Source of the DNA: Escherichia coli
GTDB taxonomy: Bacteria > Pseudomonadota > Gammaproteobacteria > Enterobacterales > Enterobacteriaceae
Length of the DNA stretch: 64,000 bases
Direction: 5' to 3' (one strand)
Assembly: GCF_029227855.1 (NCBI RefSeq)
Contig: NZ_CP074356.1
Part shown: in pieces, positions 2,418 through 8,021 of the stretch
How the letters are laid out: each line of letters starts with the position of its first letter
How positions within the stretch are numbered: position 1 is the stretch's first letter
Made by a program: the position numbers and the translations under genes
The notes under the pieces: model-generated
Database searches by the model: none
Seen by the model: the letters and a program-made list of their open reading frames with translations, nothing else
What the model was told of the DNA's origin: nothing

Positions 2418-2427
2418 GGAGGTGGTA

Positions 2428-3171
2428 ATGACCACACCAAATCCACTGGCAAAGACGAAAGGTGCGGGGACGACGTTCTGGATGTATACCGGCAACGGCG
2501 ATGCGTTTGCGAACCCTTTGTCGGACACTGACTGGCTGCGTCTTGCGATGGTGAAGGATCTGCAACCTGGCGAAATGACCGCTGATGCAGAAGATGACAC
2601 TTATCTCGATGATGAAGATGCAGACTGGAAAACGACAACCCAGGGGCAGAAATCCGTTGGTGATACTTCGGCGACGCTGGCCTGGCGTCCGGGTGACAGC
2701 GGGCAGAAAAAACTGGTTCAGTTGTTCGACTCCGGTGAAGTCTGCGCGTTTCGTATCAAATATCCCAACGGCACTGTTGATGTTTTCCGTGGCTGGCTGA
2801 GCTCACTGGGTAAAACCATTGCCTCAAAAGACGTGATGACCCGCACTGTGAAAATCAGCGGTGTGGGGCGTCCGTATCTGGCAGAGGAAGGCACTGAAAC
2901 CGTGAGCGTTACCGGGCTGACAGTATCACCGGCGTCTGCCAGTGTAAAAGTGGGAGCAACCACCACGCTGACCTTTACAGTAAAACCTGACGGAGCCAGT
3001 GACAAAGCGATCAGTGTGCATTCGTCAGATCCACAGACTGCCACGGTTACCCTGAACGGACTTGTGGCCACGGTAAAAGGCGTGAAGCAGGGCAGTGTCA
3101 GCATTGTGGGCATGACCGCTGACGGGAATTTTGTGGCTGTGGCTGCGGTGACTGTCAGCGCCGCAGGTTAA
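2428..3171 (+). CDS. Major tail protein (lambda gpV-like) with C-terminal Ig-like (Big_2) domain
   Basis: ATG at 2428 follows an AAGGAGGTGG Shine-Dalgarno; 247 aa; C-terminus is a Thr/Val-rich beta domain typical of V. Confidence 0.9.
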   Translation: MTTPNPLAKTKGAGTTFWMYTGNGDAFANPLSDTDWLRLAMVKDLQPGEMTADAEDDTYLDDEDADWKTTTQGQKSVGDTSATLAWRPGDSGQKKLVQLFDSGEVCAFRIKYPNGTVDVFRGWLSSLGKTIASKDVMTRTVKISGVGRPYLAEEGTETVSVTGLTVSPASASVKVGATTTLTFTVKPDGASDKAISVHSSDPQTATVTLNGLVATVKGVKQGSVSIVGMTADGNFVAVAAVTVSAAG

Positions 3172-3191
3172 CAGGACGATACTCATCATTT

Positions 3192-3219
3192 GCCCCGGTT
3201 ATCCGGGGCTTTTTTGCAG
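3192..3219 (+). terminator. Intrinsic terminator-like hairpin between V and G
   Basis: GCCCCGG-TTAT-CCGGGGC stem followed by TTTTTT. Confidence 0.55.
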
Positions 3220-3228
3220 GTGGAGAAC

Positions 3229-3618
3229 ATGATGTTTCTGAAACAGGGCACGTTTAATTATGAAAAACAGTCCGTGGTGCTCAGTGAGCTGTCCGGGCTG
3301 CAGAGAATTGAATATCTGGCGTTTGTTCAGCAGCGAACGGCAAAGTTTGATGCCGGTGAGGGAGAACTGCCGGAGGCTGAACGACAGATTGCTTTTCTGC
3401 GGATGGGGATGGATATCAATGCCTGGCTGGTTTCCCGCTCACTGTGGAATGCGGATCAGTCTAAGGATGTAGAGACGCTTTGCGCATCCGTTATTACAAC
3501 ATGGTCGTATGATGCCCTGGGTGCGGGGGCGGAGATGGTTCTGTCGCTGAGCGGTATGGGGGCCATTGATAATGCCGGGGATGATGAGCATGAGGCGCTG
3601 ACGCCGGAAAAGTCCTGA
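3229..3618 (+). CDS. Tail assembly chaperone (lambda gpG-like)
   Basis: 129-aa ORF; GGTGGAG Shine-Dalgarno before ATG 3229; sits before the tape measure gene. Confidence 0.85.
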   Translation: MMFLKQGTFNYEKQSVVLSELSGLQRIEYLAFVQQRTAKFDAGEGELPEAERQIAFLRMGMDINAWLVSRSLWNADQSKDVETLCASVITTWSYDALGAGAEMVLSLSGMGAIDNAGDDEHEALTPEKS

Positions 3619-3956
3619 CGCGGGAAATGCAGTTTGTCATGCGGCTTGCCCGGGAGTTCCGACGGGCAGACTGGCGGCGGATGCTGTCGGAAATGTCGGC
3701 CACTGAGCTTGGTGAGTGGGGCGATTATTTCCGGATGCAGAGCTTCAGTGATGTGTGGATGGATGCGCAGTTTGCCTCGCTGAAGGCATTGATCGTGAGA
3801 ATGGTGTCCGGCAGCAGTGATGCTGCGGTGGCTGATTTCAGCCTTTTACCGGAAGAGAACGGGATACCGGAGCGAACGGACGAAGAACTGATGCATCTTG
3901 GGGAAGGTATTTCCGGAGGTGTGCGTTATGGACCAGATAGCCAACCTGGTCATTGA
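3594..3956 (+). CDS. T-frame extension of the G-T fusion chaperone (reached by -1 frameshift from G)
   Basis: The -1 frame is open from 3594 and overlaps the last 8 codons of G; candidate slip site GGAAAAG at 3606-3612. Confidence 0.65.
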   Translation, partial: GADAGKVLTREMQFVMRLAREFRRADWRRMLSEMSATELGEWGDYFRMQSFSDVWMDAQFASLKALIVRMVSGSSDAAVADFSLLPEENGIPERTDEELMHLGEGISGGVRYGPDSQPGH

Positions 3957-6900
3957 TTTGGGGATTGATGCGGCAGAGTTTAAAAATGAAATCCCCCGTA
4001 TCAAAAACCTTCTGAATGGTGCAGCCAGCGATGCAGAACGGTCTTCTGCCCGTATGCAGCGTTTTATGGAGCGTCAGACTCAGGCCGCCCGGCAGACAAC
4101 GCAGGCGGCGTCTTCGGCTGCAACAGCCGCATCCGTCCATGCGCAGACAGTGGAGAAGAACGCACAGGCTCATGAACGCATGGCCCGCGAGGTGGAGAAA
4201 ACCCGCCAGCGCATGGAGGCGCTGAGCCAGAAAATGCGCGAGGAACAGGCGCAGGCCATGGCTCTGGCGGAGGCTCAGGATAAAGCGGCTGCTGCGTTTT
4301 ATCGTCAGATTGACAGTGTGAAACAGGCCAGTGCGGGGCTGCAGGAATTACAGCGTATTCAGCAGCAGATCCGACAGGCCAGAAACAGTGGCGGGATTGG
4401 TCAGCAGGATTATCTGGCGCTGATTTCTGAGGTTACGGCGAAAACCCGTGTTCTTACACAGGCTGAGGAAGAGGCTACCCGACAGAAAGTGGCGTTTATC
4501 CGTCAGCTTAAAGAGCAGGCAACCCGCCAGAATCTTTCTTCTTCTGAGTTGCTTCGTGCTAAGGCTGCCCAGCTGGGGGTAAGCAGTGCTGCAGAAGTGT
4601 ATATCCGCAAAATGGAGCAGGCAGGAAAAGCCACGCATTCGCTGGGTCTGAAAAGTGCAGCGGCCCGTCAGGAGATAGGCGTTCTGATAGGTGAACTGGC
4701 CCGCGGAAATTTAGGTGCGCTGAGGGGATCCGGAATAACGCTGGCTAACCGTGCCGGGTGGATAGACACATTGATGTCACCGAAAGGCATGATGCTTGGC
4801 GGGGTTATTGGCGGTATTGCCGCGGCTGTCTATGGTCTGGGTAAAGCCTGGTATGACGGTCAGAAGGAGGGGGAAGAATTTAACCGCCAGCTGTCGCTGA
4901 CGGGGCATTATGCCGGAGTCACTGCCGGGCAGCTGTGGACGCTCAGTCGTGCTATTTCCGGGAATGGTATCACGCAACATGCTGCAGCCGGTGCGCTGGC
5001 TCAGGTGGTGGGTAGTGGTGCATTTCGTGGAAACGATATCGGTATGGTGGCGAGAGCTGCCGCACAGATGGAGCGATCGGTTGGCCAGTCGATCAGCGAT
5101 ACCATAAATCAGTTTAAGCGGCTGAAGGATGATCCTGTAAATGCCGCGAAGGCTCTGGACAATGAGCTGCATTTTCTTACTGCCACTCAGCTTGAGCAGA
5201 TACGTGTCCTTGGGGATCAGGGACGGTCCAGTGATGCTGCACGGATAGCCATGTCTGCACTGGCAGAGGAAACCGGTCGGCGTACTGCGGATATTGATAA
5301 TAACCTCAATGCGCTTGGTAGTACGCTGAAGTATCTGTCTGATTTGTGGAGTCGTTTCTGGGATGCGGCCATGAATATTGGTCGTGAAGACTCGCTGGAT
5401 GAACAAATTGCCGCTTTACAGGAGAAAGTGTCGCGGGCGAAAAGACTCCCCTGGACGGCATCATCTTCTCAGGTTGAATACGATCAGCAGCGTCTTAACG
5501 ATCTTCAGGAGAAAAAACGCCAGAAGGATTTGCAGGATGCAAAAGAGCAGGCAGAGCGGAATTATCAGGAGCAACAGAAACGCCGTAATGCTGAAAATGC
5601 TGCACTGAACCGGATGAATGAAACTGAAGCAGCACGGCATCAGCGTGAAATTGCGCGTATTAATGCCATGCAGTACGCCGATCAGGCTGTCAGGGATGCG
5701 GCGATACAACGTGAAAATGAACGTTACGAGAAAGCCCTGGCATCCGGTAAGAAAAAAACACGCGAAACCCGTAATGATGAGGCCACCCGGTTATTGCTGC
5801 AGTACAGTCAGCAACAGGCACAGGTGGAAGGGCAGATTGCTGCTGCAAGACAGTCAGCAGGCATTGCCACTGACAGGATGACAGAAGCGCATAAACAGCT
5901 TCTGGCTCTGCAGCAGCGCATCAGCGACCTGGACGGGAAAAAACTGACGGCAGATGAAAAGAGTGTGCTTGCCCGTAAAGATGAACTGATTCAGGCATTG
6001 ACGCTGCTGGATGTAAAACAGCAGGAGCTTCAGAAACAGACGGCACTCAACGAGCTGAAGAAAAAAACAATTCAGCTGACCAGTCAACTGGCTGAAGAAG
6101 AGCGCGCTCAGCGTCAGCAACATGACCTGGATATCGCCACGGTGGGTATGGGTGATCAGCAGCGGCAGCGATATCAGGTACAACTGAGTCTTCGCCAGAA
6201 ATACCAGCAACAGCTGGAGCAGTTGAGGCGGGATAGTGAGCGGAAAGGGACATATAACACGGATGACTACAGAAAGGCCGAGCAGGCGCTGACGGAGAGC
6301 CTGAACCGACAACTGAGTGAGAATCGCCGTTACTGGCAACAGCTTGAAATTGCTCAGGGTGACTGGAAAAACGGAGTCCTGCGTGCACTCCAGAATGTCA
6401 CTGAGAATGCGGATAACACAGCCGGGACAGTGGAACAGTTGTTCACGTCTGCGTTCAGTAGCATGAGTGACTGGCTGGCGACATTCTGTACTACAGGCAA
6501 ACTCAATTTCAAATCCTTCACCTCTTCTGTGCTGTCAGATATGTCCAGAATCATGGCTCAGATAGCTTTAATGAAAGCGGTAAAAGGCATTGCTTCCGCG
6601 CTGCCTTTTGATTTTGTAGCTAATGCTGATGGCGGTGTTTATCAGTCGGCTGATTTGAGTCGCTACAGTGGCACGGTGGTTAACCGTCCGACGTTTTTTG
6701 CTTTTGCAAAAGGCGCGGGTGTGATGGGGGAAGCTGGGCCTGAAGCCATTCTGCCACTGCGTCGTGGTGCTGACGGTAAGCTGGGGGTTGTGGCGGATAT
6801 TGGTGGTTCAGGTATGGCGATGTTTGCCCCGCAGTACAACATCGAGATCAATAACGATGGCACGAACGGGCAGATAGGTCCGGCTGCCCTGAAGGTGGTT

Positions 6901-6984
6901 TATGACCTTGGGAAAAAAGCGGCAGCGGACTTTATGCAACAGCAGGCCCGTGATGGTGGTCGGTTAAGTGGAGCATATCGGTAA
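3928..6984 (+). CDS. Tail tape measure protein (lambda gpH-like)
   Basis: 1018 aa, coiled-coil rich; N-terminus (MDQIANLVIDLGIDAA) and C-terminus (NNDGTNGQIGPAALKVVYD) match recalled lambda H; GGAGGTG Shine-Dalgarno before 3928. Confidence 0.9.
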   Translation: MDQIANLVIDLGIDAAEFKNEIPRIKNLLNGAASDAERSSARMQRFMERQTQAARQTTQAASSAATAASVHAQTVEKNAQAHERMAREVEKTRQRMEALSQKMREEQAQAMALAEAQDKAAAAFYRQIDSVKQASAGLQELQRIQQQIRQARNSGGIGQQDYLALISEVTAKTRVLTQAEEEATRQKVAFIRQLKEQATRQNLSSSELLRAKAAQLGVSSAAEVYIRKMEQAGKATHSLGLKSAAARQEIGVLIGELARGNLGALRGSGITLANRAGWIDTLMSPKGMMLGGVIGGIAAAVYGLGKAWYDGQKEGEEFNRQLSLTGHYAGVTAGQLWTLSRAISGNGITQHAAAGALAQVVGSGAFRGNDIGMVARAAAQMERSVGQSISDTINQFKRLKDDPVNAAKALDNELHFLTATQLEQIRVLGDQGRSSDAARIAMSALAEETGRRTADIDNNLNALGSTLKYLSDLWSRFWDAAMNIGREDSLDEQIAALQEKVSRAKRLPWTASSSQVEYDQQRLNDLQEKKRQKDLQDAKEQAERNYQEQQKRRNAENAALNRMNETEAARHQREIARINAMQYADQAVRDAAIQRENERYEKALASGKKKTRETRNDEATRLLLQYSQQQAQVEGQIAAARQSAGIATDRMTEAHKQLLALQQRISDLDGKKLTADEKSVLARKDELIQALTLLDVKQQELQKQTALNELKKKTIQLTSQLAEEERAQRQQHDLDIATVGMGDQQRQRYQVQLSLRQKYQQQLEQLRRDSERKGTYNTDDYRKAEQALTESLNRQLSENRRYWQQLEIAQGDWKNGVLRALQNVTENADNTAGTVEQLFTSAFSSMSDWLATFCTTGKLNFKSFTSSVLSDMSRIMAQIALMKAVKGIASALPFDFVANADGGVYQSADLSRYSGTVVNRPTFFAFAKGAGVMGEAGPEAILPLRRGADGKLGVVADIGGSGMAMFAPQYNIEINNDGTNGQIGPAALKVVYDLGKKAAADFMQQQARDGGRLSGAYR

Positions 6985-7322: not shown

Positions 7323-8021
7323 ATGCAGGATATTCCACAGGAAACACATCATGAGACGACACGCCTTACTCAGTCAGCCCAGGTGGTGCTCTGGGAAATC
7401 GATCTGACAGAGGTCGGTGGTGAACGTTATTTTTTCTGTAATGAGCAGAACGAAAAAGGTGAGCCGGTCACCTGGCAGGGGCGGCAGTATCAGGTATACC
7501 CTATTCAGGGGACGGGATTTGAACTGAACGGTAAGGGTAGTGCTGCCCGTCCGACACTGACGGTCTCTAACCTGCACGGCATGGTCACCGGGATGGTGGA
7601 AGACCTGCAGAGTCTGGTCGGCGGAACGGTGGTCAGGCGTAAGGTTTACGCCCGTTTTCTGGATGCGGTGAACTTCGTCAACGGAAACAGCGACGCCGAT
7701 CCGGAGCAGGAGGTGATCAGCCGCTGGCGCATCGAGCAGTGCAGCGAACTGAGTGCGGTCAGTGCCTCCTTTGTGCTCTCCACACCGACGGAAACGGATG
7801 GTGCTGTTTTTCCGGGGCGCATCATGCTGGCCAACACCTGCACCTGGACCTATCGCGGTGATGAGTGCGGTTATCATGGTCCGGCTGTCGCGGATGAATA
7901 TGACCAGCCGACGTCCGATATCACGAAGGATAAATGCAGCAAATGCCTGAGCGGCTGTAAGTTTCGCAATAACGTCGGCAACTTTGGCGGCTTCCTTTCC
8001 ATTAACAAACTTTCGCAGTAA
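7323..8021 (+). CDS. Minor tail protein (lambda gpL-like)
   Basis: 232 aa, same length as lambda L; Cys-rich C-terminus. Confidence 0.9.
   Translation: MQDIPQETHHETTRLTQSAQVVLWEIDLTEVGGERYFFCNEQNEKGEPVTWQGRQYQVYPIQGTGFELNGKGSAARPTLTVSNLHGMVTGMVEDLQSLVGGTVVRRKVYARFLDAVNFVNGNSDADPEQEVISRWRIEQCSELSAVSASFVLSTPTETDGAVFPGRIMLANTCTWTYRGDECGYHGPAVADEYDQPTSDITKDKCSKCLSGCKFRNNVGNFGGFLSINKLSQ

What the first reader, a model, noticed from the sequence alone, without database searches (positions are those of the whole stretch)
3594..3626. G/GT frameshift window with a non-canonical slippery heptamer
The T frame is open from 3594 and G ends at 3618, so the -1 shift must happen in a 24-nt overlap. The only heptamer positioned like the lambda site is GGAAAAG (3606-3612), one base different from lambda GGGAAAG; its P-site codon would be GAA, not GGA.
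Basis: partly seen in the sequence, partly recalled or inferred. Interest (0 to 1): 0.4.

Follow-up and report, generated by a model that had tools for sequence, protein, structure and literature searches.

The report
Phage tail-chaperone frameshift site, GGAAAAG variant
This is the ribosome-slippage site that lets a lambda-like prophage make a fused G-T tail-assembly chaperone; its heptamer G GAA AAG differs by one base from lambda's textbook G GGA AAG, is strictly conserved in two large phage clades, is already annotated as such in phages phi80 and LLS, but is left unannotated in about a third of E. coli genomes.

Summary
G (3232-3618, PF06894) ends at TGA 3616-3618. The -1 frame (T, PF06223) is open from 3594. 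The only shift-prone motif in the 25-nt overlap is in-frame G GAA AAG (3606-3612), at the exact position homologous to lambda's G GGA AAG.

It is not a sequencing error: no E. coli genome carries a GGGAAAG version in these flanks. It is not chance either. CCG-GAA-AAG is nucleotide-invariant in 78/78 intact relatives (G identity down to 55%), and the same heptamer occurs in all phi80-like loci. Across the G family the homologous site is G GGA AAG, A AAA AAG or G GAA AAG, with A_AAG invariant.

T-frame homology runs without gaps from the residue after the slip-site Lys, and ATG 3627 is not conserved. So T is made as a G-T fusion by -1 slippage: tRNA-Lys AAG→AAA (cognate) and tRNA-Glu GAA→GGA (G·U mid-position).

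The GenBank records of phi80 and LLS already annotate GGAAAAG as the -1 site, so this is a new member of a known kind. Two additions: the fusion is unannotated in every checked record of this clade, and an anti-SD-complementary core lies 10-13 nt upstream in every clade member, at dnaX-like spacing. That may compensate for the weaker heptamer. No downstream structure is conserved.

The parts
2425..3171 (+). Major tail tube protein gene (lambda V homologue with a C-terminal Big_2 domain), upstream neighbour of the chaperone pair
   Evidence: PF16461 at 1.2e-66 and PF02368 at 5e-13; annotated as major tail protein in mEp460, Tritos and Gifsy-1
3192..3215 (+). Intrinsic terminator-like hairpin (7 G-C pairs) plus T-run between V and G
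   Evidence: Scan hit GCCCCGGTTATCCGGGGC TTTTTT; annotated as a rho-independent terminator in the mEp460 and Ayreon records
3232..3618 (+). Gene G, tail assembly chaperone (128 aa; alternative start ATG 3229), the 0-frame product
   Evidence: PF06894 at 1.8e-39 over residues 2-122; PGAP 'phage tail assembly chaperone G' in a 100% identical copy; starts MFLK like lambda G
3592..3595 (+). SD-like GAGG, 10 nt 5' of the heptamer; candidate upstream frameshift stimulator (inferred)
   Evidence: 14/14 distinct clade-A contexts have AGG ending 10 or 13 nt upstream, against 7-8% background. In a wider sample 13/15 have AGG and 2/15 have GGAG ending 11 nt upstream. Absent in the phi80 and lambda clades
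3591..3593 (+). TGA in the -1 frame; 5' boundary of the frameshift window
   Evidence: Direct reading
3606..3612 (+). Slippery heptamer G GAA AAG (P-site GAA, A-site AAG), the proposed -1 shift site
   Evidence: In frame and homologous to lambda G GGA AAG; CCG GAA AAG invariant in 78/78 intact relatives and in 32 unique G genes, where only 7 of 28 invariant-residue columns keep one codon; the same heptamer is annotated as the -1 site in phi80 and LLS
3616..3618 (+). TGA stop of G; 3' boundary of the frameshift window
   Evidence: Direct reading
3612..3956 (+). T segment read in the -1 frame after the slip (114 aa: VLTREMQFVMRLAREF...GGVRYGPDSQPGH, stop 3954-3956); with G residues 1-127 it gives a predicted 241-aa G-T fusion
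   Evidence: PF06223 at 5e-15; gap-free alignment to the lambda, phi80 and Gifsy-1 T segments starting right after the slip-site Lys
3627..3629 (+). ATG used by current annotations as the start of a stand-alone T gene; probably just an internal Met codon of G-T
   Evidence: Called as the T start in mEp460, Tritos and PGAP; aligned codon is CTG, CTT or CGT in relatives; preceded by GGGAA with only a 2-3 nt spacer
3928..6984 (+). Tape measure protein gene (lambda H homologue, 1018 aa), overlapping the 3' end of T by 29 nt; the client of G and G-T
   Evidence: PF06791 at 5e-49, PF09718 at 2.5e-23 and PF24622 at 1.5e-16; same start in the mEp460 and PGAP annotations

Best explanation
The site is a programmed -1 ribosomal frameshift at G GAA AAG (3606-3612), of the lambda G/G-T type. 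Most ribosomes read CCG GAA AAG TCC TGA and release the 128-aa chaperone G. A small fraction slip back one base while tRNA-Glu is on GAA (P site) and tRNA-Lys is on AAG (A site). tRNA-Lys re-pairs perfectly with AAA. tRNA-Glu re-pairs with GGA through G:C, G·U and A:U, which is near-cognate. Translation then continues with GTC CTG ACG... to give a 241-aa G-T fusion (...ALTPEK|VLTREMQF...). By analogy with lambda, the G part binds the tape measure protein H and the T part recruits the tube protein V.

Shown here: the geometry, the homology, the nucleotide-level conservation of the heptamer, the lack of a conserved T start, and the lack of a conserved downstream structure.

Inferred: that slippage occurs and at what rate, and that an SD-like core 10-13 nt upstream (GAGG 3592-3595) boosts the intrinsically weaker heptamer as in dnaX.
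For: Gene order and domains are V, G, T, H.

The overlap is 25 nt and contains only this motif.

CCG GAA AAG NCN TGA is invariant in 78/78 intact IMG/VR relatives with G identity of 55-100%, while the residues just upstream vary freely.

Codon-level test: only 7 of 28 invariant-residue columns keep an invariant codon, and 3 of those 7 are the consecutive P-E-K codons (background 4/25, p about 0.004).

Every intact phi80-like locus has G GAA AAG and every intact lambda-like locus has G GGA AAG at the same column. Across other lineages the site is G GGA AAG, A AAA AAG or G GAA AAG, with A_AAG invariant.

The phi80 record annotates this heptamer as 'slippery sequence for -1 translational frameshift' with a joined G-T CDS. 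The LLS record annotates 'minus-one programmed translational frameshift site GGAAAAG'. The Gifsy-1 record notes frameshifting.

T-frame homology begins immediately after the slip-site Lys, and ATG 3627 aligns with Leu or Arg.

A_AA.G is the most shift-prone tetramer in E. coli (PMC4066793). GAA→GGA re-pairing through G:U is also inferred for mycobacteriophage chaperone sites (PMC10885494).

An SD-like core lies 10-13 nt upstream in all clade members.
Against: There is no experimental detection of a G-T fusion for this clade.

In a reconstituted E. coli system, AUG GAA AAG, used as the 'only one tRNA can slip' control, gave mainly 0-frame product at all EF-G concentrations (PMC6924986).

The A_AA.G tetramer without a stimulator is near background in vivo, about 0.15% against 0.11% (PMC4066793).

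No significant or conserved downstream structure was found: z = 0.45 and a consensus of -6.3 kcal/mol with an unsupportive covariation term.

The phi80 clade has the same heptamer without an SD-like element, so that element is not generally required. Its conservation in clade A may partly reflect shared ancestry, namely a conserved Glu at codon -5 or Gln/Lys at codon -6.
Confidence: 0.85

Rival explanations
1. T is an independent gene translated from ATG 3627, as every current annotation of this clade has it, and no frameshift is needed.
For: mEp460, Tritos and PGAP call T from this ATG. The window does have an ATG nine bases after the G stop.
Against: The aligned codon is CTG, CTT or CGT in relatives that keep the same T domain. 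Annotators disagree on the start: Ayreon uses a later one, while PhiR40_1 and Gifsy-1 use a CTG overlapping the G stop. There is no SD at a usable distance. The five -1-frame codons between the heptamer and the ATG are conserved as protein ([VA]L[TN]x[EQ]). Independent initiation leaves the synonymous-site invariance of CCG GAA AAG unexplained. From established knowledge, in lambda only gpGT is made, not free gpT (Levin, Hendrix and Casjens 1993, cited in PMC5009743).
Confidence: 0.06
2. The shift happens at the same place by single-tRNA slippage only. Either peptidyl-tRNA-Lys slips AAG→AAA in the P site while the A site (TCC) is empty, or there is an A-site-only A_AAG tetramer slip. In this reading the G at 3606 and the GAA codon contribute nothing to re-pairing.
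For: A_AA.G alone can direct -1 shifting (5.6% with a strong pseudoknot) and is used as a tetramer in IS elements. Peng et al. treat G GAA AAG as a one-tRNA slip site. The protein product would be identical.
Against: The G at heptamer position 1 (third base of CCG, GCG or GTG) and GAA rather than GAG are invariant in every clade, which argues that P-site re-pairing to GGA is under selection. The codon after AAG varies (TCC, TCA, CCC), so there is no conserved 'hungry' A-site codon.
Confidence: 0.08
3. The fusion arises from transcriptional slippage on the A-run, or the module is a decaying prophage remnant in which G-T is no longer made.
For: The site contains AAAA, and the module is mostly found in prophages.
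Against: Four A's are far below the run length associated with RNA polymerase slippage (established knowledge; A7/U7 runs are discussed in PMC4066793). Identical junctions occur in plaque-forming isolates: mEp460, Tritos, HannyBb, Ayreon and phi458. The strong purifying selection on the site is incompatible with decay.
Confidence: 0.01

Closest known systems
Bacteriophage lambda G / G-T tail assembly chaperone -1 frameshift (G GGA AAG)
   Same: Same gene order (V-G-T-H) and the same Pfam families. The shift site is at the same alignment column, the A-site slip is the same (AAG→AAA), the T segment begins right after the slip-site Lys, and no conserved downstream structure is present.
   Different: The P-site codon is GAA instead of GGA, so re-pairing in the -1 frame is near-cognate (G·U at codon position 2) rather than cognate. 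The fusion carries Glu, not Gly, at the junction. G stops one codon after the heptamer rather than five. G-T identity to lambda is only about 34%. An SD-like core lies 10-13 nt upstream that lambda lacks.
phi80 / LLS / mEp043 / mEp237-type G-T sites annotated with GGAAAAG
   Same: Identical heptamer in an identical frame and at the same alignment position. GenBank FN582354 and PQ299149 explicitly annotate it as the -1 slippery site with joined CDSs.
   Different: It is a different clade, about 36% G-T identity. The preceding codon is GCG or GTG rather than CCG. Most have five further G codons after the site. There is no SD-like core 8-14 nt upstream.
E. coli dnaX gamma/tau -1 frameshift (A AAA AAG with an SD-like element 10 nt upstream and a downstream hairpin)
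   Same: The A-site AAG→AAA slip by the single E. coli tRNA-Lys. An anti-SD-complementary core sits 10-13 nt upstream of the heptamer in this clade. The dnaX architecture is as described in PMC6924986.
   Different: There is no downstream hairpin. The P-site codon is not AAA. The SD-like core is short (GAGG) in the window itself. The outcome is an extension rather than a truncation of the product.
A_AA.G tetramer frameshift sites of IS1/IS3-family elements (Sharma et al. 2014)
   Same: The only perfectly re-pairing tRNA is the A-site tRNA-Lys on A_AAG, and the expected intrinsic efficiency is low.
   Different: Here the P-site tRNA can still form a near-cognate pair, and the heptamer's first three bases are conserved. 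IS sites normally rely on a strong downstream pseudoknot or hairpin, which is absent here.

Membership tests
Lambda-type G/G-T tail assembly chaperone with programmed -1 frameshift | Two overlapping ORFs lying between the major tail (tube) gene and the tape measure gene | tested here: met
   V 2425-3171, G 3232-3618, T frame 3594-3956, H 3928-6984
Lambda-type G/G-T tail assembly chaperone with programmed -1 frameshift | The upstream ORF is a gpG-family chaperone and the downstream ORF a gpT-family segment | tested here: met
   PF06894 at 1.8e-39 and PF06223 at 5e-15
Lambda-type G/G-T tail assembly chaperone with programmed -1 frameshift | The downstream ORF is in the -1 frame, lacks a conserved start codon and RBS of its own, and is homologous from the shift site onward | tested here: met
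   Frame by direct reading. ATG 3627 aligns with CTG, CTT or CGT. The T alignment is gap-free from the residue after the slip Lys
Lambda-type G/G-T tail assembly chaperone with programmed -1 frameshift | A conserved slippery sequence in the overlap at the position homologous to lambda's | tested here: met
   G GAA AAG at the lambda column; invariant in 78/78 relatives plus all phi80-like loci
Lambda-type G/G-T tail assembly chaperone with programmed -1 frameshift | The G-T fusion protein is actually produced at a few percent of G and is required for tail assembly | not testable with these tools
   Needs a western blot, mass spectrometry or a reporter assay. No fusion with the PEK|VLTRE junction is deposited among 5.8 billion protein clusters
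Canonical X XXY YYZ simultaneous-slippage heptamer | XXX are three identical bases, so the P-site tRNA re-pairs at its two non-wobble positions | tested here: not met
   Heptamer positions 1-3 are G, G, A. GAA→GGA leaves a G·U pair at codon position 2 (described as a second-position mismatch in PMC6924986)
Canonical X XXY YYZ simultaneous-slippage heptamer | YYY are three identical bases, allowing A-site re-pairing (in E. coli, best with A_AA.G) | tested here: met
   A AAG at 3609-3612 in frame; hierarchy from PMC4066793
dnaX-type stimulated -1 frameshift | An internal Shine-Dalgarno-like sequence about 10-14 nt 5' of the shift site | tested here: inconclusive
   GAGG ends 10 nt upstream. An AGG or GGAG core lies 10-13 nt upstream in all 15+ distinct clade contexts, against a 7-8% background. 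However, the contexts are related by descent, the core is short, and the optimum spacing is recalled from Larsen et al. 1994, which was not read here
dnaX-type stimulated -1 frameshift | A stable stem-loop a few nt 3' of the shift site | tested here: not met
   z = 0.45 for 3613-3712; consensus structure -6.28 kcal/mol, starting about 35 nt downstream, with covariation term +0.28

The most novel reading that the evidence does not exclude
A heptamer that ribosome biochemists use as a 'poorly slippery, one-tRNA' control (G GAA AAG) is in nature the preferred, and possibly ancestral, G-T shift site of most lambda-family chaperones. In the mEp460/cdtI/Gifsy clade it is paired with a dnaX-like internal Shine-Dalgarno core 10-13 nt upstream that restores lambda-like efficiency without any downstream structure. 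Heptamer choice (GGA, GAA or AAA) plus this SD element would then be an evolutionary dial that sets the G:G-T ratio, perhaps matched to tape-measure length (about 1020-1045 aa in the GGAAAAG clades against 853 aa in lambda).
Probability: 0.3. Interest if true: 0.5.

Novelty: new member of a known kind. Interest (0 to 1): 0.3.

Why it matters
There are three practical consequences.

1. Annotation. This G/T module is present in 1,843 of 5,426 complete E. coli genomes and in many phage isolates. Every record checked for this clade (PGAP, mEp460, Tritos, Ayreon, PhiR40_1) calls T as a stand-alone gene with inconsistent starts, and no G-T fusion product is deposited. Frameshift finders restricted to X XXY YYZ will miss it.

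2. Mechanism. It is a natural, strongly conserved case of -1 frameshifting with near-cognate (G·U mid-codon) P-site re-pairing. It has three naturally occurring alleles at one homologous site (G GGA AAG, A AAA AAG, G GAA AAG). That makes a ready-made series for measuring how P-site pairing and an upstream SD set frameshift efficiency and chaperone stoichiometry.

3. Scope. It does not change the known biology of tail assembly: it is the lambda mechanism with a one-base variant, already recognised by the annotators of phi80 and LLS.

Tried and rejected
Sequencing error restoring GGGAAAG. Rejected: 0 exact matches for the mutant 71-mer against 375 for the wild type, and the heptamer is invariant in all relatives.

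Downstream stimulatory hairpin or pseudoknot. Rejected: the single-sequence fold gives z = 0.45. The alignment fold of 8 representatives is weak, starts about 35 nt downstream and has no supportive covariation. The small hairpin UCCUG-ACG-CGGGA that starts right at the heptamer's end is absent in the L076 group and is too close to act as a stimulator.

Another slip site in the overlap. None found: there is no canonical heptamer and no other in-frame Z_ZZN motif in 3594-3618.

Transcriptional slippage. The A4 run is too short.

Anti-SD duplex-energy scan. It was noisy and dominated by GGGG/GGAG motifs about 20 nt upstream, so it was replaced by an explicit motif-and-spacing test with an in-gene background.

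Literature. Searches for 'GGAAAAG' plus frameshift found nothing relevant. 'G GAA AAG' found only Peng et al. 2019. Xu, Hendrix and Duda 2004 and Rotman et al. 2012 are not held, so I could not check whether they list this heptamer.

Deposited fusion protein. The search found only four singleton deletion alleles, not frameshift products.

Tape-measure length correlation. Noted, but with only three clades it stays a speculation.

Script failure. One script ran into an unbounded loop on a truncated locus and was rerun with bounds.

Full report
**What is in the sequence.** Reading 3000-4200 and the ORF table shows a lambda-type tail module.
- A tube-protein gene at 2425-3171 (PF16461 at 1.2e-66, plus a Big_2 domain).
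- A 128/129-aa ORF at 3232(3229)-3618 that is a gpG tail assembly chaperone (PF06894 at 1.8e-39).
- A -1-frame ORF open from 3594 to 3956 that carries the gpT domain (PF06223 at 5e-15).
- A 1018-aa tape measure gene from 3928 (PF06791, PF09718, PF24622).

In G-frame codons the junction is CAT GAG GCG CTG ACG CCG GAA AAG TCC TGA. In the -1 frame it is TGA GGC GCT GAC GCC GGA AAA GTC CTG ACG CGG GAA ATG. The overlap is 25 nt counting the stop. It contains no canonical X XXY YYZ heptamer and no other in-frame Z_ZZN motif.

**Is it more than chance, or an error?** The bare string GGAAAAG is common in the window, with 20 copies against 9.3 expected, so its presence alone means little. What matters is frame, position and conservation.

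The region is 98-100% identical to phages mEp460, cdtI, Tritos, HannyBb, Ayreon and phi458. It occurs in 1,843 of 5,426 complete E. coli genomes. A 71-mer centred on the site matches exactly in 375 E. coli records. The same 71-mer with A3608→G, which restores lambda's GGGAAAG, matches exactly in none. That excludes a sequencing error.

Among 80 IMG/VR loci encoding G relatives at 55-100% identity, all 78 with an intact G gene have CCG GAA AAG NCN TGA. The residues just upstream vary freely: DDEHEALT, NGEQVPLT, DDVKEVLT, SDTQAALT, TSDQEALT, GSEKDTTT, GNESEDMT.

In a codon alignment of 32 unique G genes (pairwise identity down to 47%), only 7 of 28 columns with an invariant, degenerate amino acid also have an invariant codon. 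Three of those seven are the consecutive CCG, GAA and AAG codons. With a background of 4/25, p is about 0.004. The constraint therefore acts on the nucleotides, not only on the protein.

**Family-wide comparison.** At the homologous alignment column:
- lambda, DE3 and phage 21 have GCG GGA AAG, as do all intact lambda-like IMG/VR loci;
- phi80 and all intact phi80-like loci have G[CT]G GAA AAG;
- Gifsy-1 has CCG GAA AAG;
- further lineages show G GGA AAG (Stx2a_JNE110649, PhiR12_2), A AAA AAG (Stx2_95) and G GAA AAG (mEp043, mEp237, Eeyore, LLS, Klebsiella Kp4865-4).

The invariant element is A_AAG, and the P-site codon is GGA, AAA or GAA. G-T identity is about 50% between phi80 and lambda and about 35% between either of them and the window's clade. 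A single A↔G change on the lambda branch therefore explains the distribution, and with midpoint rooting G GAA AAG would be the older state. That is an inference, because no outgroup was used.

**Is T made by frameshifting or from its own ATG?** The predicted post-slip sequences align without gaps from the residue right after the slip-site Lys...PEK|VLTREMQFVMRLAREF (window)...PEK|VLNRELAFVMRLAREF (Gifsy-1)...AEK|ALASELKFVLNLAREF (phi80) and ...AGK|VFDGELSFALKLAREM (lambda).

The Met encoded by ATG 3627 aligns with Leu in Gifsy-1, phi80 and lambda, with CTT in L076 and with CGT in L131. In L076/L077 the next Met is also missing. The ATG is preceded by GGGAA with only 2-3 nt of spacing.

Annotators disagree on the T start. 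mEp460, Tritos and PGAP use ATG 3627, Ayreon uses a later start, and PhiR40_1 and Gifsy-1 use a CTG overlapping the G stop. None of these records joins G and T. By contrast, the phi80 record FN582354 has a joined 'gpG-T' CDS and a misc_feature 'slippery sequence for -1 translational frameshift' exactly on GGAAAAG. The LLS record PQ299149 states 'minus-one programmed translational frameshift site GGAAAAG'.

A search of 5.8 billion protein clusters with the predicted 241-aa fusion found no entry with the PEK|VLTRE junction. It found only four singleton alleles in which a DNA deletion fuses G to T.

**Mechanism.** This rests on established knowledge of E. coli decoding. One tRNA-Lys (anticodon UUU family) reads AAA and AAG, and one tRNA-Glu (UUC family) reads GAA and GAG. 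On G GAA AAG, a -1 slip moves tRNA-Lys from AAG to AAA, which is cognate. It moves tRNA-Glu from GAA to GGA, pairing G:C, G·U and A:U, which is near-cognate.

Peng et al. 2019 used exactly this sequence (AUG GAA AAG) as their 'less slippery' mRNA. They describe the second-position mismatch and report mainly 0-frame product at all EF-G concentrations, with frameshifting rising in EF-G domain-4 mutants (PMC6924986).

Sharma et al. 2014 found A_AA.G to be by far the best tetramer in E. coli. It reached 5.6% with the IS3 pseudoknot but about 0.15% against 0.11% background without a stimulator. G_GG.A_AA.G was among the best heptamers (PMC4066793).

PRFect lists non-canonical motifs such as 'twofour' in tail chaperones, and notes GAA→GGA re-pairing via G:U in GGGGGAA sites (PMC10885494).

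So the site is expected to be intrinsically weaker than lambda's. Only a few percent is needed, however: the lambda G:G-T ratio is about 30:1 (PMC5009743).

**Stimulators.** Downstream there is nothing convincing. The 100 nt after the heptamer fold no better than shuffled sequence (z = 0.45). A consensus fold of eight representatives is weak (-6.28 kcal/mol), begins about 35 nt downstream and has a non-supportive covariation term.

Upstream, the window has GAGG at 3592-3595, 10 nt before the heptamer. All 14 distinct 30-nt upstream contexts in this clade have AGG whose last G lies exactly 10 or 13 nt upstream (GAGG, AAGGA, CAGGT, CAGGA, and the full AAGGAGGTG in L054/L055). The background in the same genes and codon phase is 7-8%.

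A wider sample, taken by scanning for the junction string and keeping only G-like ORFs, gave 15 contexts. Thirteen have AGG at 10 or 13 nt, and two have GGAG ending 11 nt upstream. The phi80 and lambda clades lack such a core at 8-14 nt.

This spacing matches the SD-like stimulator of dnaX. The dnaX architecture is summarised in PMC6924986, but the 10-14 nt optimum is from my memory of Larsen et al. 1994.

I treat this as a hypothesis, at roughly 0.4-0.45 probability. The contexts are related by descent, since Glu at codon -5 or Gln/Lys at codon -6 are partly conserved residues. The consistent use of G-ending codons (GAG, CAG, AAG) followed by a G-starting codon is nevertheless suggestive.

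**Comparison with what is known, and novelty.** The module meets every testable defining feature of the lambda G/G-T programmed frameshift except the strict X XXY YYZ form of the heptamer. It fails the 'XXX identical' criterion and the dnaX-type downstream hairpin criterion. Production of the fusion cannot be tested here.

The very same heptamer is already annotated as the -1 site in phi80 and LLS, so the finding is a new member of a known kind rather than a new mechanism. Three things are new in practice:
- the demonstration that G GAA AAG is nucleotide-invariant in two large clades and more widespread in the family than lambda's canonical site;
- the fact that the fusion is unannotated in a module carried by about a third of E. 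coli genomes;
- the clade-specific SD-like core at dnaX-like spacing.

**Verdict.** The best explanation, at 0.85 confidence, is a -1 programmed frameshift at 3606-3612 giving a 241-aa G-T chaperone. Interest is modest at 0.3. The case is useful for annotation and as a natural allelic series for frameshift mechanics, but it is not surprising to a specialist.

Noticed in passing
window 3192-3215: A strong intrinsic terminator-like hairpin (7 G-C pairs, GCCCCGG-TTAT-CCGGGGC, then TTTTTT) sits between the tube gene V and the chaperone gene G. The mEp460 and Ayreon records also annotate a terminator here. It could lower expression of G, T and H relative to V.
   Followed up: partly
window 3229-3234: The G start is ambiguous (ATGATG). 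The mEp460 and Tritos records start at the first ATG (3229), while PGAP starts at the second (3232). Lambda, phi80 and Gifsy-1 G all begin MFL/MFS, which favours 3232.
   Followed up: partly
L067 (IMG/VR 2558860274_000012), around locus 1501-1770: In this relative, G is truncated after about 76 residues and runs into sequence that reads ...EIDLTEVGGER in another frame, which matches the start of the window's gpL-like ORF (7323-8021). This looks like a deletion of T, H and M in a defective prophage.
   Followed up: no
proteins P0001, P0002, P0003, P0018 (relatives of window 3232-3956): Four singleton database proteins (212-233 aa) carry both the G and T domains because short DNA deletions around the junction fuse the frames. 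P0001, for example, reads ...IDNA-DAGKVLTRE. These are genetic G-T fusions or assembly errors, not frameshift products.
   Followed up: partly
window 3928-6984 versus L005, L008, L006: Tape measure proteins are about 1018-1045 aa in the three GGAAAAG lineages checked (window, Gifsy-1, phi80) against 853 aa in lambda/DE3 (GGGAAAG). A weaker shift site might go with a longer tail that needs more G per G-T, but this rests on only three clades and is speculative.
   Followed up: no
whole window, both strands: GGAAAAG occurs 20 times against 9.3 expected from shuffles (none of 100 shuffles reached 20), and 16 of the 20 copies are on the + strand. This is probably a codon-usage effect (GAA AAG / GGA AAA) of the + strand genes. 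The frame of the other copies was not examined.
   Followed up: no
E. coli genomes matching window 3190-3960: The G/T module is present in 1,843 of 5,426 complete E. coli genomes, with up to 6 copies per genome and 6 copies on plasmids. It is a very successful tail module shared among many prophages.
   Followed up: no
window 3928-3956: The tape measure gene starts (ATG 3928) 29 nt before the T stop (3954-3956), inside the conserved C-terminal GGVRYGP motif region of T. The same arrangement is seen in the mEp460, Gifsy-1 and lambda records, so G-T termination and H initiation overlap.
   Followed up: no
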